From contig JAJRYY010000009.1 of NCBI GenBank assembly GCA_024275565.1, positions 6,756 through 70,755 of the forward strand: 64,000 nucleotides of DNA, written 5' to 3'. The position numbers and the translations under genes were made by a program. The notes under the pieces were generated by a model, which searched no databases, was not told where the DNA came from, and worked only from the letters and a program-made list of their open reading frames with translations. Shown in pieces: positions 37,522 to 43,986 of this stretch. Source of the DNA: Planctomycetota bacterium (lineage in GTDB: Bacteria; Planctomycetota; Phycisphaerae; UBA1845). The first letter of the stretch is position 1. Each line of letters begins with the position of its first letter.

Positions 37522-38679
37522 TCACGAATCATCGCCGCAGGCGCTACCAACCAGCCCGCGAATCTGCTCAGAAAGATCACCACCTCCAAACACAAACGTC
37601 GAGCGCGTCCCGGAAAGAATCTCACCAAGCTGCTCAAACTCCTTCATCCGCGCAAGCGTAGGATTCTCAGCAAGCAACTTCGCAGTATTCGCCTGACTCC
37701 GTGCAGCAGCCGTCTCCTCACGACGCCGGATAAGGTTCGCCTGAGCAGACTTCTCAGCCTCAATCACCTGGTTCAGAATCGTCTTCATCTCACCAGGCAG
37801 TATGATGTCCTTAAGCCCAACGCTCTTGATGGCAACACCAAATCCCTGAGCGCGAGATGCAAGCGCATTCCGAACCTCACCACTGACCGACTCCTTATCA
37901 GCAAGCAACGTATCCAGCGTCCGCGTACCAACAGCAGCCCGCAAAACAAGCTGTGCTTCACGGTACAACGCCTGACCATGGTCAGTCACAACGGTCACCG
38001 CCTTCACAGAATCAACAACCTGATACGCAACCAGAAGATTCACACGCAACGTAACCTTGTCCTTGGTCATGATCTCTTGGCCCGCAACATCCGCAACCTG
38101 CTCACGGCGATCAACAACGCTCCACCTCACACGTCCAACCGTGTTCCAGAAAACATGCCGGCCCTTACGAAGCGTCTCAACAATCGCACCATCCTTAAAC
38201 AACAACGCATCCTCATAATCGGAAACATCCACACTGATCAACCACTTGGACCCAACATCGAAAGCCATCACAGCATCCAGCTTCGCATGATCAAAACGCG
38301 GAACATCCGTATCGAACACCTCAACCTCAATCTTATAAGGCTCATTCCAGAACGCATGACGACCAGGCCCAACGATGTACGCAAGGCGACCATCCTTCCA
38401 GACCAGAGCACGCTCATGGTCAGCAAGCTCGACAATCTTCAGAGCATCACGCATCGCCGCATCCTGAAGCAACACGTCCAACAGCGGATGCTCGAACCGG
38501 GTCAACAGCGTACTCACAACGCCGATCCGATGACGCGTACGACTCCACAGAGAGCTCCACAGACGGTACTTACCCGGTTCCAGCAGCCGGACGAAATCGC
38601 CATACTCAAACAACAAACCCTTCTCATAAGACTTAATCCGCGTCAATCCAAACATACTCACGACACCTCCTTTCAACAT
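37522..38679 (-). CDS. SPFH/band-7 (stomatin/flotillin-like) domain protein with N-terminal repeated region
   Basis: The C-terminal ~170 aa match the SPFH family (LKDIILPGEMKTILNQVIEAEKSAQANLIRRREETAAARSQ). Confidence 0.8.
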   Translation of the reverse strand: MLKGGVVSMFGLTRIKSYEKGLLFEYGDFVRLLEPGKYRLWSSLWSRTRHRIGVVSTLLTRFEHPLLDVLLQDAAMRDALKIVELADHERALVWKDGRLAYIVGPGRHAFWNEPYKIEVEVFDTDVPRFDHAKLDAVMAFDVGSKWLISVDVSDYEDALLFKDGAIVETLRKGRHVFWNTVGRVRWSVVDRREQVADVAGQEIMTKDKVTLRVNLLVAYQVVDSVKAVTVVTDHGQALYREAQLVLRAAVGTRTLDTLLADKESVSGEVRNALASRAQGFGVAIKSVGLKDIILPGEMKTILNQVIEAEKSAQANLIRRREETAAARSQANTAKLLAENPTLARMKEFEQLGEILSGTRSTFVFGGGDLSEQIRGLVGSACGDDS

Positions 38680-39025
38680 ACATCCCGCACGAACTTCCGA
38701 CCTATATCAACCGTCCAACAATGAACGCAAAATCTAAAATCGCAGGTTGAAGGGTGACCCTCACGATCTGTCCCGAGTTCGCAACGGAGTCGAGTTTAAG
38801 ACGCACCAGCAACCACCTCGACCTTATACTTCCGGAAGGTGTCTCGATACCCGGTTACAGGGCGTCGATGGTGCTGGCACGTCGGTATCCACCCGACTTC
38901 AAAGATACTTACACGGCGCCAACGATGTACCATGCAATCGAAACCGCATGACGCACCACCGATGGCTGACAAAATCGCTAAATCACTCCCAAAACCTGCT
39001 TTTCAAAGCGACTTTTCAGCCGCTC

Positions 39026-39095
39026 AAGAGGGGCGGGATTCGAACCCGCTACCGCACGGTTAAACCGTGTGCTCTTACCAGATGAGCTACCCAGG
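39026..39095 (-). tRNA. tRNA-like gene (possible tRNA pseudogene) with canonical D- and T-arms but non-pairing acceptor stem
   Basis: The reverse complement reads ...TAGCTCATCTGGTAAGAGC-A-CACGGTTTAACCGTGCG-GTA-GCGGGTTCGAATCCCGC-CCCTCTTG. The T-loop is TTCGAAT. The anticodon region contains TTTAA, giving either a UUA or UAA anticodon depending on how the loop is drawn. Confidence 0.45.
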
Positions 39096-39178
39096 TGGTC
39101 TGGACAGGAATCGAACCTGCTTCACTGTAAGGTGACAGCCCTTAACAGGCTGCGCTCGACCATCGAGCATCCAGAACC
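39096..39178 (-). tRNA. class-II-like tRNA (15-nt variable arm), anticodon loop TGTTAAG, isotype unresolved
   Basis: The reverse complement reads GGTTCTGG-AT-GCTCGATGGTCGAGC-G-CAGCC-TGTTAAG-GGCTG-TCACCTTACAGTGAA-GCAGGTTCGATTCCTGT-CCAGACC-A. The acceptor stem pairs only with one bulge or mismatch. Confidence 0.55.
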
Positions 39179-39383
39179 GATATTGTTTCCGATGCCGTTC
39201 ACGGTACACGCCACAGATAAATCCAGCACACAAATCCACCGGACCCAAAACGCGCCGCCGGCACAACATCGGTTTGACCCAATCTATACACCTTCCACAT
39301 CTATACATCTTCCACGCAACCCGCACATCGCGGATGTCAATGGACCTGTAACCCGTCAGAGTCACACGATAGTCACACGATAA

Positions 39384-40400
39384 TTACGCGATAGATATAA
39401 CGATGGCGCGACTGTCCTCACGTTCCGTTTCGATCTCAACGTCAAGAAACTTACCAATCAGATCAACATGCGTTTCAGAATGACGAGACAATCCCGTAGA
39501 CCGAAACGTTCCAGACCCCGCGATCGCCATCGGCAGCAACAACTGATCCGTCAGATACTCTCCAACCGGAGCAGATGACCGAAGATAACGCTGACACTGC
39601 TGAACCGCATGGGAAGCGACAGCCTCAGCAGCTCGACCAACCTCACCGAAACCCGTAAAAACTTCCGTCACGTTCTCATACCCAAGCTCGATCGTCACAA
39701 TATTTCCAGGACCCACAGGGCGATCGATCTCAACAACTTCCGCTTCACCCTCATCCCAACCGAGACGCTTCCGCATGACGCGAACTTCCCGATCAGCGAT
39801 CTTCCGATCAAGACTCGATACAACCGCCCGCCCACATCGCCGCACCAGATCGCCACGCTCCACAATGCTGATCCCACCGAAAGATTCAGCAGGTGTCACA
39901 TCCACAACCATACGTCCCCCACCCGCCGGATAGAACCCATACCTCTCAAGGGTCACCGATACCTTCGGACCCATCCGATTCACAAGCGGAAGGTACGACC
40001 GCTCAAGAAAGTCAAACGGAGGTGCATACGGATTATGCGTCCCGCCCTCAAGCACGATCCGACTCGGCGCTTTCGCAAGTGCAAGCGGAAGCAAAATCGT
40101 CTGCAGCACAAGCGTCGTACTACCCGCCGTCCCAATACTGAACGTATAATCACCACCCACAGCCACACCCGGAACAAACACCAGCTCGGTCGAACCCATC
40201 TCATCGCCCTCGACCTTACACCGCCCAATCTCAGCAGCAGCACGGACAGCCGTAAGGTGTTGTCGCAGCAGTCCGGGCTTCCTCCGCTTCGCACGAATAT
40301 TCTCAATTCGAAACGCCCTACCCGTAACGATCGACAGCGCAAGGGACGATCGCAATATCTGCCCCCCGCCTTCACAAAATGAACCATCAACCGTCAACAT
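39384..40400 (-). CDS. rtcA: RNA 3'-terminal phosphate cyclase
   Basis: MLTVDGSFCEGGGQILRSSLALSIVTGRAFRIENIRAKRRKPGL is the RtcA N-terminal signature. Confidence 0.85.
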   Translation of the reverse strand: MLTVDGSFCEGGGQILRSSLALSIVTGRAFRIENIRAKRRKPGLLRQHLTAVRAAAEIGRCKVEGDEMGSTELVFVPGVAVGGDYTFSIGTAGSTTLVLQTILLPLALAKAPSRIVLEGGTHNPYAPPFDFLERSYLPLVNRMGPKVSVTLERYGFYPAGGGRMVVDVTPAESFGGISIVERGDLVRRCGRAVVSSLDRKIADREVRVMRKRLGWDEGEAEVVEIDRPVGPGNIVTIELGYENVTEVFTGFGEVGRAAEAVASHAVQQCQRYLRSSAPVGEYLTDQLLLPMAIAGSGTFRSTGLSRHSETHVDLIGKFLDVEIETEREDSRAIVISIA

Positions 40401-40484
40401 CACAACAACCTCCTGGAAAGAACAATTCATCGACAGGGCGACCATGTCTTCCTAACAACAGGGCGCCCATATCTTCTTCAACAG

Positions 40485-40730: not shown

Positions 40731-42242
40731 TCAATCATCCGCCGCAGAAGCATCCTTAATCACAAAACGCGCCTTCAACCGTGCAACCTCAGAAGCCAGC
40801 CCGGCAAGCTTCACAGAACGAAGCACCTCATCAAAATCCTTATAGACAGCCGGGGCTTCATCCATCGGATAATTCCGGCAATTCGTCATAATATCGCACG
40901 TCTCGAACGACGCATTGATCGACTTCTGATCCAGCGACCGGATCGCGGCTTTGCGACCCATCACGCGTCCGGCACCATGATTCACACTGTAACAACTAAT
41001 CTCCGCACCCTTATCCGCCACCATGACAGCCGACCCCCGCTGCGGATCACCCGGCAGCAAAATAGGATGCCCGCTCTTGGCAAACGGCGTATCCTTCAAC
41101 GCATAATGACCACCAGGAAACGCCCGGGTCGCACCCTTACGCATCACCCAGGAAGGTCGGTTATTCACAATCTCCTTCCGCGCAATATTATGACTGATGA
41201 GGTAAACCAGCTCACCAGACACACCCGGAATGACCTCCTGAAAAGCCTCCAGCACAAGCGCGTTAATCAGCAGATGATTCACAGTCGCAAAATTCGCTCC
41301 CATGGACATATCATCGATATAAGCATTCGCCTCAGGCGTCCCAAGCGGTGCATAACACAAATGCCTGTCATTCCCAGGATACTCTATACCCCACCGGTCA
41401 AACTTCCGCTGCAACGCCTGAAACTGTCCCATAGCAAGGTTGTGACCAAATCCACGCGATCCACAGTGCGAGAGAAACGCGACATGCTTATCCCGCAGCC
41501 CGAAGGTCTCAGCACAGTGCTTCGCCCGGCTGTCATCACCAACCTCCACCACCTCACACTCGCCAAAATGATTACCGCCACCATACGACCCAAGCTGCGT
41601 AACCTTCTCCCTGAACTTCGGAAACGCCCCGGAGTGCAGTAGCCAGTCGAGTCGAGCACCCAGCGCATCCCGGGTTTCATCGTGTCCCAGGTGGAAAGAG
41701 TCCTCACAACGCGTCGCCCACCGTGCAGGGACACCCATCGCCTCACAAACCCCCTGCGACGCACCTTCGATCGCAACGCGTCTCCCCAGCGGCTCGCCCA
41801 CATGCCTCGATTTTCGGACGCTGCGCTGGCCCCGCCCCGCTCCCGTAGGCGTCCGCTCACAAATCGCCTCAATCACCGCCCGCCGGGTACGACGATCCAG
41901 AACCTCATTTTCAGGCAAATCAAGCTGCAATAAGCTCATGGAACACTTGATATCCACGCCTACGGGACCGGGGTAGATGTGGGAGGCGGAGGCCATCACG
42001 CAGCCAATGGGGGCGCCATACCCGATATGGGCATCGGGGTTCAGTACCACTTCATCCACGCCGGGGGCGAGGCGGGCATTGACCACCTGCTGCAAAGTGG
42101 CGTCATCAAACGTATCAAGGATAGCCTCGGTCCCAATAACCGTTATTGGCTTCACCTTACCGTCAGCCACCGGCAAAATAGACGTTGCCGCACCCGTACT
42201 CACCAGTCTGTTCGTATGCTTCGCCATCAGAATACTCCTCAC
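40731..42242 (-). CDS. rtcB: RNA-splicing ligase RtcB
   Basis: 503 aa with the RtcB His/Cys metal-site motifs and the VNHGAGR block. Confidence 0.9.
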   Translation of the reverse strand: MRSILMAKHTNRLVSTGAATSILPVADGKVKPITVIGTEAILDTFDDATLQQVVNARLAPGVDEVVLNPDAHIGYGAPIGCVMASASHIYPGPVGVDIKCSMSLLQLDLPENEVLDRRTRRAVIEAICERTPTGAGRGQRSVRKSRHVGEPLGRRVAIEGASQGVCEAMGVPARWATRCEDSFHLGHDETRDALGARLDWLLHSGAFPKFREKVTQLGSYGGGNHFGECEVVEVGDDSRAKHCAETFGLRDKHVAFLSHCGSRGFGHNLAMGQFQALQRKFDRWGIEYPGNDRHLCYAPLGTPEANAYIDDMSMGANFATVNHLLINALVLEAFQEVIPGVSGELVYLISHNIARKEIVNNRPSWVMRKGATRAFPGGHYALKDTPFAKSGHPILLPGDPQRGSAVMVADKGAEISCYSVNHGAGRVMGRKAAIRSLDQKSINASFETCDIMTNCRNYPMDEAPAVYKDFDEVLRSVKLAGLASEVARLKARFVIKDASAADD

Positions 42243-42265: not shown

Positions 42266-42282
42266 AAGCACCCTGCGTGCCA
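42266..42282 (-). promoter_or_regulatory. sigma-54 (-24/-12) promoter for rtcBA
   Basis: The minus strand reads TGGCACGcaggGTGCT, with a perfect -24 TGGCACG and correct spacing to a GC at -12. It lies 25-40 bp upstream of the rtcB start and next to the divergent rtcR. Confidence 0.5.
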
Positions 42283-42378: not shown

Positions 42379-43986
42379 ATGTTGAACGTCGCAATCGGAA
42401 TGCTGGGCATGATGCGGGATCGCGGGGATGGACCGGATCGGTGGTCGCAATGGCGCCCTACTGTGTCTTTGTGTCAGCACGAGGATCTGTTGATCAGCCG
42501 TCTCGAACTGCTCGTCGAGACAGGATCGATGGATCTGGCGAATCGGGTGGCAGCCGACGTTCGCTCGGTATCCCCCGAGACCGAAGTTCGCCTCCATATG
42601 ATCGAATTTGGCGATCCATGGGACTTCGAGAATGTCTACAGCGTCCTGCACGGGTTTGCCCTGGATTACCAGTTTGACACCGATCAGGAGCGGTATCTGA
42701 TTCATGTGACCACGGGTACCCATGTCGCTCAAATCTGCACCTACCTGCTGACGGAATCCCGGCATCTTCCCGGGCGGTTGATTCAGACGGCGCCTCCGAA
42801 GCGGCGTAGTTCTGGGCAGGCTGGCCGGTATACGATTATTGATCTGGATTTGTCGAAATACGATCGAATCGCGCAGCGTTTTGAAAGCGAGCAGCGCGAA
42901 GGATCTGAATTCCTGAAGGCTGGGATTCAGACGCGTAATGTTGCTTTTAATCGCATGATTGACGAGATCGAATATGTGGCGATCCACTCGCGGGCGCCGA
43001 TCCTGCTGACGGGTCCGACGGGGGCGGGGAAGTCGAGTCTCGCCCGTCGTATCTTTGATCTGCGGAAGTTGCGGAACAACGTTGCGGGTCGTTTTGTGGA
43101 GGTCAACTGTGCGACCTTGCGTGGTGACGGAGCGATGTCTGCTCTTTTTGGTCATACGCGTGGATCGTTCACGGGGGCTGCTCAGGATCGGGCTGGATTG
43201 CTGAAGGAAGCCCACCTTGGGATTCTGTTTCTTGATGAGGTTGGCGAGCTGGGTCTGGATGAACAGGCGATGCTCTTGCGGGCTGTCGAAGAGCATCGTT
43301 TTCTTCCGCTTGGATCGGACAAGGAGGTCAGCAGTGATTTTCAGCTGATCTGCGGTACGAATCGCGACCTCGGGGCTGATGTCCGGTCGGGTCGATTTCG
43401 CAACGATCTGTTGTCCCGGATCAACCTCTGGGCATTTGAACTGCCGGGGTTGGCGCAGCGGCGTGAGGATATTGAACCGAACGTTCATTTTTCTCTTGAG
43501 CAGGTCACGGTTGCGACGGGCCATCGTTTTCGGTTCAACAAGGAGGCATTGGATATGTTTCTGCGGTTTGCGGAATGTCCGGATACCCCCTGGACCGGGA
43601 ATTTTCGAGACCTCGACGCTGCCATAGCCCGGATGGCGACCTTGGCGCCGTCCGGGAGGATTACGGAGGAGGCGGTGGATCGTGAGATTGATCGCCTCAA
43701 GCGGTCGTGGCGTGATTCTGGAACGTCTGCTTCGGTCGATGGTACGCATGTTCTGGAAGCCCTGCTGGGAGACAGGCTGGACGACCTTGACGAATTCGAC
43801 AGGGTTCAACTCGAGCGTGTGGTGCTGGTCTGTATGGAGTCGCGGTCCTTGTCGGTGGCTGGCCGTCGTTTGTTCGCTGCCTCAAGGCGTAAGCGGAAGG
43901 CGCCGAACGATGCGGATCGCCTTCGGAAGTATTTGTCGCGGTATCGACTGGACTGGTCCATGGTGAAAGACGCTCTTCCCGGGTGA
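42379..43986 (+). CDS. rtcR: sigma-54-dependent transcriptional activator RtcR (CARF-AAA+-HTH)
   Basis: Walker A LLTGPTGAGKSSLARRIF and the GAFTGA-like region are present. There is an N-terminal CARF-like domain and a C-terminal HTH. Confidence 0.85.
   Translation: MLNVAIGMLGMMRDRGDGPDRWSQWRPTVSLCQHEDLLISRLELLVETGSMDLANRVAADVRSVSPETEVRLHMIEFGDPWDFENVYSVLHGFALDYQFDTDQERYLIHVTTGTHVAQICTYLLTESRHLPGRLIQTAPPKRRSSGQAGRYTIIDLDLSKYDRIAQRFESEQREGSEFLKAGIQTRNVAFNRMIDEIEYVAIHSRAPILLTGPTGAGKSSLARRIFDLRKLRNNVAGRFVEVNCATLRGDGAMSALFGHTRGSFTGAAQDRAGLLKEAHLGILFLDEVGELGLDEQAMLLRAVEEHRFLPLGSDKEVSSDFQLICGTNRDLGADVRSGRFRNDLLSRINLWAFELPGLAQRREDIEPNVHFSLEQVTVATGHRFRFNKEALDMFLRFAECPDTPWTGNFRDLDAAIARMATLAPSGRITEEAVDREIDRLKRSWRDSGTSASVDGTHVLEALLGDRLDDLDEFDRVQLERVVLVCMESRSLSVAGRRLFAASRRKRKAPNDADRLRKYLSRYRLDWSMVKDALPG

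What the first reader, a model, noticed from the sequence alone, without database searches (positions are those of the whole stretch)
39026..39178. Two adjacent tRNA-like genes with non-canonical features: imperfect acceptor stems and TTAA-containing anticodon loops
The downstream gene has perfect D- and T-arms, with a TTCGAAT T-loop. Its 5' acceptor strand (ACCTGGG) cannot pair with the 3' strand (CCCTCTT), and its anticodon region CACGG-TTTAA-CCGTG folds better as a 5-nt-loop hairpin. The upstream gene is class-II-like with a 15-nt variable arm. It needs a bulged T in the acceptor stem (GGTTCTGG versus CCAGACC), and its 7-nt loop TGTTAAG places UUA at positions 34-36. Read literally, UUA would decode the ochre stop codon UAA. 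The alternative is a Leu(UAA) tRNA with an unusual loop, or the genes may be pseudogenes or tRNA-derived remnants.
Basis: partly seen in the sequence, partly recalled or inferred. Interest (0 to 1): 0.6.

Follow-up and report, generated by a model that had tools for sequence, protein, structure and literature searches.

The report
Tandem tRNA mimics in RNA-repair operon
The two odd tRNA-like genes are real, but they are not stop-codon suppressors: they are conserved, non-decoding tRNA mimics that sit between the RNA-repair gene rtcA and a Band-7 (stomatin-like) gene, which matches a predicted but untested class called band-7-associated tRNA.

Summary
Both elements lie on the minus strand: tRNA-like 1 at 39178..39096 and tRNA-like 2 at 39096..39026.

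They sit in an RtcR/sigma-54 RNA-repair operon, in the order rtcR <> rtcB-rtcA-[tRNA-like 1][tRNA-like 2]-hairpin-spacer-Band7.

- **Conserved position.** The same pair occupies the same place in five other Phycisphaerae genomes.
- **What is conserved and what is not.** The D and T arms, the leader and the trailing hairpin are far better conserved than rtcA third codon positions. Stems are kept by compensatory changes. The anticodon loops are not conserved: their length ranges from 5 to 8 nt and ARAGORN reads them as UUA, GAA, AAG or UGA.
- **Stem defects.** The truncated or bulged acceptor stems recur in all relatives, so they are a family trait and not assembly errors.
- **No sign of recoding.** TAA is an ordinary stop codon here, ending 14 of 40 long ORFs.
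- **Wider distribution.** In other phyla, 23 of 26 non-redundant rtc loci that carry a Band-7 gene have a tRNA-like element 300-750 nt upstream of it.

This matches the 'b7a-tRNA' predicted by Burroughs and Aravind (2016). It is not a suppressor tRNA, a decaying pseudogene or a YrlA Y RNA.

The function is inferred, not shown: most likely a tRNA-mimic partner of the Band-7 protein in RtcB/RtcA RNA repair. I rate it a new member of a known kind, of moderate interest.

The parts
42379..43986 (+). rtcR: a CARF / AAA+ / HTH sigma-54 activator, transcribed divergently from rtcB
   Evidence: Pfam RtcR 1.6e-80 plus Sigma54_activat. NCBIfam RNA_repair_RtcR scores 775 bits against a cut-off of 650.
42267..42282 (-). 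Sigma-54 promoter-like site TGGCACGCAGGGTGCT upstream of rtcB
   Evidence: One mismatch to TGGCAC-N5-TTGCW, lying in the 136-nt rtcR-rtcB intergenic region. This is a consensus match only; the number of matches across the window is no higher than chance.
40731..42242 (-). rtcB RNA ligase
   Evidence: Pfam RtcB 4e-99.
39384..40445 (-). rtcA RNA 3'-phosphate cyclase
   Evidence: Pfam RTC 1e-75. NCBIfam equivalog scores 434.7 bits against a cut-off of 352.
39251..39264 (-). Conserved motif GUGCCGGCGGCGCG, the start of the conserved non-coding block
   Evidence: Conserved in the five relatives. The same GCCRRCGGCGCA motif lies near the 5' end of the Band-7 leader in other phyla and in L162-L164.
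39179..39212 (-). Conserved leader GGCGUGUACCGUGAACGGCAUCGGAAACAAUAUC
   Evidence: Window-to-relative identity is 0.92 and 0.71 for the two 20-nt windows that cover it. It aligns to the GUGYGUUCCGU leader motif of the single-copy loci from other phyla (weak at E 0.016).
39096..39178 (-). tRNA-like 1. It is class-II-like, with a 5-bp D stem, loop UGUUAAG and a bulged acceptor stem. It is a clade-specific extra copy.
   Evidence: ARAGORN calls tRNA-Stop(tta). Rfam tRNA-Sec scores 31.6 bits, below the gathering score. Five genomes carry orthologues with compensatory changes in the anticodon, D, T and variable stems. It is absent from L162-L164, which have only the second element.
39026..39096 (-). 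tRNA-like 2. It corresponds to the single Band-7-associated tRNA-like element of other genomes. It has canonical D and T arms, a 5-nt anticodon loop and a 3-bp acceptor stem.
   Evidence: Rfam tRNA scores 40.6 bits. My covariance model of 15 single-copy elements from other phyla hits the window only here: 39103..38998, 53.7 bits, E 5e-16. Covariation in nine sequences is shown.
39007..39024 (-). Trailing hairpin AGCGGC-UGAAAA-GUCGCU directly after tRNA-like 2
   Evidence: Present after the tRNA-like element in all relatives and in other phyla, with compensatory changes. 82% of cells are paired.
38740..39006 (-). Conserved non-coding spacer. It includes GCAGGUUUUGGGAGUGAU (38999..38982), a T-arm-like hairpin (38950..38931) and the block CUUAAACUCGACUCCGUUGCG (about 38799..38770).
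   Evidence: Identity of the window to its relatives is 0.6-0.8 per 20-nt window over most of the spacer, dipping to about 0.5 around 38860-38801. The rtcA-proximal spacer scores 0.3-0.45. There is no conserved ORF. The last block also occurs in other phyla.
37522..38655 (-). Band-7 / SPFH (slipin, stomatin-like) protein, soluble. The likely start is the ATG at 38655. The mechanical ORF begins at 38679.
   Evidence: Pfam Band_7 4e-30. Stomatin structures match at E 1e-26. No transmembrane segment: the maximum Kyte-Doolittle 19-residue score is 1.45. Relatives are 80% identical and 377 aa long.

Best explanation
[quoted passage not shown] They form the core of a roughly 540-nt conserved non-coding block between rtcA and a soluble Band-7/slipin gene, inside an RtcR/sigma-54-controlled rtcB-rtcA RNA-repair operon.

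**Shown here:**
- Cloverleaf folds with intact D-loop/T-loop elbows.
- Truncated or bulged acceptor stems that are conserved across relatives.
- Free variation of the anticodon loops.
- Linkage to the Band-7 gene across phyla.

**Inferred:**
- The RNA is made as part of the RtcR-induced operon transcript.
- It folds into two L-shaped tRNA-like domains, possibly released by RNase P or RNase Z.
- It acts as the RNA partner of the Band-7 oligomer, in the way Y RNA/YrlA partners Ro60 in other rtc operons. The resulting particle would help RtcB and RtcA deal with broken tRNAs, or would compete with real tRNAs for anticodon nucleases.

tRNA-like 2 is the ancestral copy. tRNA-like 1 is an extra copy inserted between the leader and tRNA-like 2 in this subclade.

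**My probabilities:**
- It is a b7a-type tRNA mimic and does not decode: about 0.85.
- Partner or scaffold for Band-7: about 0.4.
- Decoy or bait for nucleases: about 0.25.
- Purely cis-acting processing signal: about 0.15.
For: **Context:**
- RtcR, RtcB, RtcA and Band_7 were identified by Pfam and NCBIfam.
- A sigma-54-like site lies upstream of rtcB. None with two or fewer mismatches lies in the rtcA-Band7 spacer.

**Conservation and structure:**
- The same pair lies between rtcA and Band7 in L001, L056, L150, L153 and L157.
- Window-to-relative identity is 0.74-0.77 for the block and 0.79-1.0 for the T arms. It is 0.39-0.50 for rtcA third codon positions. It is 0.19-0.52 for the anticodon loop plus variable arm of tRNA-like 1.
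- In the tRNA-like 2 family (nine sequences), 86.7% of cells are paired and 11 pairs change on both sides. No shuffle out of 500 reaches these values. Only the top three acceptor pairs are always formed.

**Other phyla:**
- 23 of 26 non-redundant Band7-containing rtc loci have a T-loop motif or tRNA-like element 300-750 nt upstream of Band7.
- Fifteen of these give a strongly covarying cloverleaf. It has a 3-5-bp acceptor stem and anticodon loops of 6-9 nt with no common anticodon.
- My covariance model of them hits the window only at 39103..38998, at 53.7 bits.
- The leader and trailing hairpin are shared.

**Literature:**
- bioRxiv 10.1101/312249 describes b7a-tRNA, citing Burroughs and Aravind 2016. 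It calls it a predicted tRNA-like ncRNA next to a Band-7 gene and RtcB, not yet validated experimentally.
- YrlA's tRNA-like domain has been proposed as a competitive inhibitor of an anticodon nuclease (PMC7790460).
Against: - There are no expression, processing or binding data. Co-transcription and Band-7 binding are inferred from gene order only.
- The original description of b7a-tRNA could not be read, so membership rests on a second-hand definition.
- My covariance model also scores true tRNAs at 40-72 bits, so its score does not separate b7a-tRNAs from tRNAs.
- The profile alignment of the leader to other phyla is weak (E 0.016).
- Near-neutral anticodon loops fit 'irrelevant to function' and 'diversifying bait' equally well.
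- In L157, tRNA-like 2 is nearly a canonical tRNA-Phe, with 6 of 7 acceptor pairs and an ACCA end. Some family members may therefore still be chargeable.
Confidence: 0.6

Rival explanations
1. Sacrificial bait or decoy. The tRNA mimics are cut in their anticodon loops by invading or stress-induced anticodon nucleases. That either spares real tRNAs or yields 5' halves ending in 2',3'-cyclic phosphate. Those halves would bind the RtcR CARF domain and amplify operon induction.
For: - RtcR binds 5' tRNA halves ending in cyclic phosphate (PMC7790460).
- YrlA has been proposed as a nuclease competitor.
- Anticodon stems are strictly kept while loop sequence and length vary freely.
- In many phyla the tRNA-like element is the first element transcribed after the sigma-54 promoter.
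Against: - Loop identity of 0.19-0.52 is no lower than that of neutral sites, so no diversifying selection is demonstrated.
- The 5-nt and 6-nt loops, including this window's tRNA-like 2, would be poor mimics of a 7-nt anticodon loop.
- In Salmonella, YrlA was not cleaved by the nuclease.
Confidence: 0.2
2. A purely cis-acting processing or stability signal. The tRNA-like folds are RNase P / RNase Z cleavage sites that separate the rtcBA message from the Band-7 message, or trim its leader. The released RNA has no role of its own.
For: - The elements lie within the operon, between cistrons or in the leader.
- The intact elbows are what RNase P recognises (established knowledge).
- The two elements abut each other with no spacer.
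Against: - This does not explain the strict linkage to Band-7. It also does not explain the conserved leader, trailing hairpin and roughly 370-nt spacer.
- It does not explain why the module travels with Band-7 without rtcBA in L162 and L164.
- Acceptor stems of 3-5 bp are weak RNase P substrates (established knowledge).
Confidence: 0.12
3. Decaying tRNA pseudogenes: neutral remnants of the tRNA arrays that relatives carry in their rtc operons.
For: - Relatives have arrays of canonical tRNAs between rtcR and rtcB, and a tRNA-His after Band7. The window lacks both.
- The acceptor stems and anticodon loops are defective.
Against: - The scaffold is much better conserved than neutral sites.
- Compensatory changes keep the stems.
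- The same defects recur across genomes.
- Homologous modules exist in other phyla.
Confidence: 0.04
4. A functional ochre-suppressor tRNA, or tRNA-Leu(UAA), that decodes UAA or UUA.
For: ARAGORN calls tRNA-Stop(tta), with UUA at positions 34-36 of a 7-nt loop.
Against: - The anticodon differs in every lineage, and two orthologues lack the variable arm.
- G33, a bulged or mismatched acceptor stem and no CCA.
- TAA ends 14 of 40 long ORFs. Treating TAA as sense does not merge ORFs more than treating TAG as sense does.
- Rfam tRNA does not reach threshold on it.
Confidence: 0.02
5. A YrlA-type Y RNA: the T arm of element 1, a CCAG/CUGG hairpin and the D arm of element 2 would form the permuted tRNA-like module that partners Ro60.
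For: A weak Rfam YrlA hit at 39124..39071, 25.6 bits. Other rtc operons do carry YrlA and Rsr (L043, L049).
Against: - The score is far below the gathering score of 69.
- Chen et al. 2014 warn that tandem tRNAs give exactly this false positive.
- The CCAG/CUGG hairpin is not conserved in relatives.
- There is no Ro60/TROVE gene in the window.
Confidence: 0.02

Closest known systems
b7a-tRNA (band-7-associated tRNA-like ncRNA), predicted by Burroughs and Aravind, Nucleic Acids Res 2016. Known to me here through bioRxiv 10.1101/312249 and from memory of the abstract.
   Same: A tRNA-like ncRNA encoded next to a Band-7/SPFH gene in an RtcB RNA-repair operon. It strongly resembles a tRNA. Its role is proposed to be analogous to Y RNA with Ro60.
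   Different: - Here there are two abutting copies. The first has a class-II-like extra arm.
- The module lies after rtcA, not at the head of the operon.
- It is embedded in a roughly 540-nt conserved non-coding block with a leader, a trailing hairpin and a spacer. I could not check whether the original paper describes that block.
YrlA / bacterial Y RNA (Rfam RF02553; Chen et al. 2014, PMC4201824)
   Same: A tRNA mimic with T-loop/D-loop elbow sequences. It is encoded in RtcR-controlled rtc operons and has a non-decoding role.
   Different: - YrlA is a permuted tRNA-like module closed by a Ro60-binding stem, and it needs Rsr.
- Here the order is an ordinary cloverleaf, there is no Rsr, and the partner gene is Band-7.
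- The Rfam score is 25.6 against a gathering score of 69.
Ochre suppressor tRNAs, and suppressor tRNAs of stop-codon-recoded phages
   Same: UUA occupies positions 34-36 of a 7-nt loop in tRNA-like 1.
   Different: G33, a defective acceptor stem, no CCA, an anticodon that is not conserved, and normal use of TAA as a stop.
tRNA-Sec and allo-tRNAs (from memory: Mukai et al., Nucleic Acids Res 2017)
   Same: A long variable arm, an extended D stem, an irregular acceptor stem longer than 7 nt, and an unusual anticodon.
   Different: - Rfam tRNA-Sec scores 31.6 bits, below 47.
- The T stem is 5 bp: G·U here is G-C in relatives.
- The variable arm is lost in two orthologues.
- No selenocysteine genes were seen among the flanking genes scanned.

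Membership tests
b7a-tRNA (band-7-associated tRNA-like ncRNA) | Cloverleaf-like ncRNA that strongly resembles a tRNA | tested here: met
   Rfam tRNA scores 40.6 bits on tRNA-like 2. ARAGORN calls tRNA-like 1. RNAfold gives cloverleaves. Covariation supports the fold.
b7a-tRNA (band-7-associated tRNA-like ncRNA) | Encoded next to, and on the same strand as, a Band-7/SPFH gene | tested here: met
   Band_7 is at 38655..37522 (-), 370 nt downstream of tRNA-like 2. The same linkage holds in 23 of 26 non-redundant Band7-containing rtc loci.
b7a-tRNA (band-7-associated tRNA-like ncRNA) | Part of an RtcB RNA-repair gene neighbourhood | tested here: met
   The order is rtcR <> rtcB-rtcA-tRNA-likes-Band7.
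b7a-tRNA (band-7-associated tRNA-like ncRNA) | Sequence and structure similarity to Band-7-linked tRNA-likes of other phyla | tested here: inconclusive
   Model R1 hits the window only at 39103..38998, at 53.7 bits. However, true tRNAs score 40-72 bits with it. The shared leader and trailing hairpin support homology, although the profile E-value for the leader is weak at 0.016.
b7a-tRNA (band-7-associated tRNA-like ncRNA) | Match to the alignment and criteria of the original description | not testable with these tools
   The paper is not held. The family is not in Rfam 15: only the generic tRNA model hits these elements.
Ochre suppressor tRNA | A conserved anticodon complementary to UAA, in a canonical loop with U33 | tested here: not met
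   G33. Orthologues read GAA, AAG or UGA, with loops of 5-7 nt.
Ochre suppressor tRNA | A chargeable acceptor end: a 7-bp stem, a discriminator base and CCA | tested here: not met
   The acceptor stem is bulged or mismatched, and the 3' end is ACCU with no CCA.
Ochre suppressor tRNA | Genomic signs of UAA reassignment or read-through | tested here: not met
   TAA ends 14 of 40 ORFs of at least 300 aa. There is no special ORF extension when TAA is read as sense. This rests on the 64-kb window only.
YrlA / Y RNA-like (RF02553) | Reaches the Rfam gathering score with the permuted tRNA-like module and closing stem | tested here: not met
   25.6 bits against 69; only model positions 27-81 are matched. 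The hairpin is not conserved.
YrlA / Y RNA-like (RF02553) | An adjacent Ro60 (Rsr, TROVE) gene | tested here: not met
   tblastn with the Rsr of L043 finds nothing in the window. That query was confirmed as Ro60 by Pfam.
tRNA-Sec / allo-tRNA | 8/5, 9/4, 8/4 or 9/3 acceptor/T-stem geometry with a conserved long variable arm | tested here: not met
   tRNA-Sec scores 31.6 bits, below 47. The 5-bp T stem is supported by G·U changing to G-C. The variable arm is absent in L153 and L157.

The most novel reading that the evidence does not exclude
Band-7-linked tRNA mimics, including this tandem pair, are sentinels. Their anticodon loops are cut by invading ribotoxins. [quoted passage not shown] The operon would then carry its own damage reporter, and the free-running anticodon loops would track the local repertoire of anticodon nucleases. 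A related possibility is that the whole roughly 540-nt conserved block is one large structured RNA that assembles with the Band-7 cage.
Probability: 0.12. Interest if true: 0.75.

Novelty: new member of a known kind. Interest (0 to 1): 0.35.

Why it matters
- It removes a false lead: there is no stop-codon suppressor or recoding here.
- It places the element in a class of tRNA mimics that was predicted in 2016, has never been tested and is absent from Rfam.
- The comparison adds concrete, testable features of that class:
  - a conserved elbow;
  - a 3-5-bp acceptor stem;
  - anticodon loops that vary freely;
  - a shared leader and trailing hairpin;
  - linkage to a soluble slipin protein, even outside rtcBA operons.
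- These features give a starting point for asking what Band-7 and its RNA do in bacterial RNA repair. That role is as unclear as the role of Ro60 and Y RNA.

Tried and rejected
- **YrlA reading.** A weak Rfam hit spans the junction of the two elements. I rejected it because the hairpin is not conserved, there is no Ro60 gene, and this is a known tandem-tRNA artefact.
- **tRNA-Sec / allo-tRNA reading of tRNA-like 1.** The score is below threshold, and the geometry and variable arm are not conserved.
- **Stop-codon recoding.** ORF statistics under alternative stop sets show nothing.
- **Internal sigma-54 promoter in the rtcA-Band7 spacer.** No match with two or fewer mismatches. The sigma-70 scan was empty, and the one terminator-like hairpin has a weak U tract that is not conserved.
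- **Small ORF in the spacer.** A run of synonymous-looking changes (LKLDSVA) looked suggestive. However, relatives differ by frameshifts, and loci from other phyla have a stop codon in that frame.
- **Separating b7a-tRNAs from tRNAs with my own covariance model.** It failed because true tRNAs score as high.
- **Origin of tRNA-like 1 from the tRNA-Leu genes of relatives' operons.** There is no similarity beyond the T loop.
- **Metagenome scan with RtcA.** It returned only relatives of 57% identity or less and three more Band-7-linked elements.
- **Burroughs and Aravind 2016.** The paper could not be retrieved by DOI or by my recalled PMC id.
- **Band-7 N-terminal region.** No RNA-binding domain was found. 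There is only a weak second Band_7 match. I did not predict its structure.

Full report
**1. The observation**

Read on the minus strand, the region holds two abutting tRNA-like elements.

tRNA-like 1 spans 39178..39096:
- Acceptor strands GGUUCUGG and CCAGACC pair only with a bulged U. ARAGORN's alternative is a U·C mismatch.
- The D stem is up to 6 bp.
- The anticodon stem is 6 bp and carries the 7-nt loop UGUUAAG, with G33 and UUA at positions 34-36.
- The variable arm is 14-15 nt.
- The T arm is canonical: GCAGG-UUCGAUU-CCUGU.

tRNA-like 2 spans 39096..39026:
- The D arm (GCUC/GAGC) and T arm (GCGGG-UUCGAAU-CCCGC) are perfect.
- The anticodon hairpin CACGG-UUUAA-CCGUG has only 5 loop bases.
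- The acceptor strands pair only at GGG/CCC.

What the tools say:
- ARAGORN calls only the first element, as tRNA-Stop(tta).
- Rfam's tRNA model hits only the second, at 40.6 bits, locally, with two loop positions deleted.
- The first element scores 31.6 bits on tRNA-Sec, below threshold.
- Thermodynamic folding alone gives two cloverleaves followed by a hairpin.

**2. Context**

- The elements lie in an RNA-repair operon. rtcR (42379-43986, +) is divergent from rtcB (42242..40731), rtcA (40445..39384), the two tRNA-likes and a Band-7/SPFH gene (38655..37522), all on the minus strand.
- A sigma-54-type site, TGGCACGCAGGGTGCT, precedes rtcB. No such site lies in the rtcA-Band7 spacer.
- The Band-7 protein is stomatin/slipin-like, has no transmembrane segment and is highly conserved.
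- The genetic code looks standard. TAA ends 14 of 40 ORFs of at least 300 aa.
- The closest relatives of the RtcA and Band-7 proteins are from Phycisphaerae genomes assembled from metagenomes.

**3. Relatives**

The same pair, in the same place between rtcA and Band7, occurs in five other distinct Phycisphaerae contigs: L001, L056, L150, L153 and L157.

*Identity of the window to these relatives:*

| Region | Identity |
|---|---|
| Leader + pair + hairpin | 0.74-0.77 |
| T arms | 0.79-1.0 |
| rtcA third codon positions | 0.39-0.50 |
| rtcA-proximal spacer | 0.31-0.45 |
| Anticodon loop + variable arm of tRNA-like 1 | 0.19-0.52 |

*Compensatory changes keep the stems:*
- Anticodon stem of tRNA-like 1: CAGCC/GGCUG changes to CAGAU/AUCUG.
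- D stem: G-C changes to A-U.
- T stem: A-U changes to G-C.
- The variable-arm stems differ completely in sequence yet still pair.

*The loops are not conserved:*
- tRNA-like 1 reads UGUUAAG, UUGAAGG, UUGAAAA, CUUGAAA or CUAAGAA.
- Two genomes lack its variable arm.
- tRNA-like 2 has loops of 5, 7 or 8 nt.

*The stem defects recur.* The acceptor bulge is present everywhere, and is 2 nt in the relatives. It is therefore not an assembly error.

*Three more distant Band-7 loci (L162-L164).* They carry the same leader followed by a single element homologous to tRNA-like 2. tRNA-like 2 is therefore the ancestral copy, and tRNA-like 1 is a clade-specific insertion.

*Nine tRNA-like 2 sequences:*
- 86.7% of cells are paired.
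- 11 pairs change on both sides.
- No shuffle out of 500 does as well.
- Only the top three acceptor pairs are always formed. The lower four are mostly unpaired.

**4. Other phyla**

- Among rtc loci from GTDB and metagenomes, 23 of 26 non-redundant loci with a Band-7 gene have a T-loop motif or tRNA-like element 300-750 nt upstream of it on the same strand.
- The usual order is rtcR(-) | sigma-54 promoter | leader | tRNA-like | hairpins | Band7 | rtcA | rtcB.
- Fifteen such elements align to a cloverleaf with strong covariation: 90% of cells paired, 15 of 22 pairs with double changes, and 0 of 500 shuffles as good. They have an acceptor stem of 3-5 bp and anticodon loops of 6-9 nt with no common anticodon.
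- A covariance model built from them hits the window once, at 39103..38998, at 53.7 bits. That hit covers tRNA-like 2 plus its hairpin.
- The score alone is not diagnostic, because true tRNAs score 40-72 bits with the same model.
- The shared leader motifs (GCCRRCGGCGCA; GUGYGUUCCGU), the trailing hairpin and a downstream block support common descent.

**5. What it is**

[quoted passage not shown] It was proposed to be functionally analogous to YrlA with Ro60 and has not been validated (bioRxiv 10.1101/312249, citing Burroughs and Aravind 2016).
- I could not read the original paper, and no other held paper uses the term.
- The family is not in Rfam 15.

**6. How it probably works**

*Shown:*
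- A conserved L-shape scaffold, with D-loop GG and T-loop UUCGA invariant.
- Truncated acceptor stems.
- No encoded CCA in the window or in most relatives.
- Unconstrained anticodon loops.
- Linkage to Band-7, including in L162 and L164 where rtcBA is not adjacent.

*Inferred:*
- The RNA is made from the RtcR-induced transcript.
- It folds into tRNA mimics that do not decode.
- It acts with the soluble Band-7 oligomer in RtcB/RtcA-linked RNA repair.

*Alternatives that fit the same data:*
- Competitor or bait for anticodon nucleases. RtcR binds 5' tRNA halves ending in cyclic phosphate, and YrlA was proposed as a nuclease competitor.
- A purely cis-acting processing signal.

The sequence data cannot separate these.

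**7. Rejected readings**

- *Ochre suppressor or tRNA-Leu(UAA).* The anticodon is not conserved, position 33 is G, the acceptor end is not chargeable and TAA is used normally.
- *Decaying pseudogenes.* Purifying selection and compensatory changes argue against this.
- *YrlA.* The score is 25.6 bits against 69. Tandem tRNAs are a known source of this artefact. The hairpin is not conserved, and there is no Ro60 gene.
- *tRNA-Sec or allo-tRNA.* The score is below threshold and the geometry is not conserved.

**8. Verdict**

Its headline idea, stop-codon decoding, is wrong.
- It is a new member of a predicted, untested class. It differs in being a tandem pair placed after rtcA.
- Interest is moderate (0.35).

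Noticed in passing
L001 417-991 and 9098-9170; L056 728-1204 and 9169-9241; L153 709-1243 and 7050-7122; L157 371-555 and 6958-7030; L158 754-1495; L043 3563-4070; L045 4260-4502; L049 4061-4662; L050 3631-4231: Many rtc operons carry arrays of canonical-looking tRNA genes on the operon strand, between rtcR and rtcB. In the window's relatives a tRNA-His also follows Band7. The arrays consist almost entirely of decoders of CNN codons, with G at anticodon position 36: Arg, Pro, Gln, Leu(CAG/UAG/GAG) and His. Asn and Tyr are added in Caulobacterales. The window lacks these arrays. Salmonella RtcR binds best to a tRNA-Leu(UAG) 5' half ending at G36 with a cyclic phosphate (PMC7790460). I do not know whether this pattern has been described.
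   Followed up: partly
window 39280..38740 (-): The whole rtcA-Band7 intergenic core, about 540 nt, is conserved, not just the tRNA-likes. It includes a 5' motif GUGCCGGCGGCGCG (39264..39251), a T-arm-like hairpin CAUGCG-GUUUCGAU-UGCAUG (38950..38931) with compensatory changes, and a block CUUAAACUCGACUCCGUUGCG (about 38799..38770). That block also occurs before Band7 in other phyla. No conserved ORF was found. It may be one large structured RNA.
   Followed up: partly
L162 2500-3000; L164 2400-3000: The leader - tRNA-like - spacer - Band7 module occurs without adjacent rtcA or rtcB. In L162 it lies next to a Type ISP restriction-enzyme gene. In L164 it lies next to a ClpB-like AAA+ gene. The RNA is therefore tied to Band-7 and not to RtcB.
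   Followed up: partly
L043 1335-3406; L049 1660-3763: Some relatives combine Ro60 (TROVE + vWA), a YrlA above the Rfam threshold (79.1 and 73.1 bits), a tRNA array, rtcB and rtcA in one operon. L045 has a Band7 gene with a tRNA-like element as well as a tRNA array.
   Followed up: partly
window 39282-39315 and 39360-39381 (+ strand coordinates): Two short tandem direct repeats lie just downstream of the rtcA stop codon: ATCTATACAYCTTCCAC x2 and AGTCACACGAT x2. They are not conserved in relatives, and their function is unknown.
   Followed up: no
L157 5278-5354: In one relative the counterpart of tRNA-like 2 is nearly a canonical tRNA-Phe(GAA), with 6 of 7 acceptor pairs and an encoded ACCA. 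Members of the family may shift between a chargeable tRNA and a mimic, or be repaired by gene conversion.
   Followed up: no
L152 5086-9030; L149, L157, L160 (DUF5677); L155, L158, L159 (N6-adenineMlase-like): Close relatives insert variable extra genes in the rtc operon. These include a Hen1-like RNA methyltransferase with a 789-aa partner after rtcA (L152), preceded by an atypical 75-nt 'tRNA-Ser(gct)'. DUF5677 and small methylase-like ORFs lie between rtcB and rtcA.
   Followed up: no
window 38655 versus 38679: The Band-7 ORF found mechanically starts at 38679 (385 aa). The database protein (377 aa), the relatives and a GGAGG ribosome-binding site all point to the ATG at 38655.
   Followed up: yes
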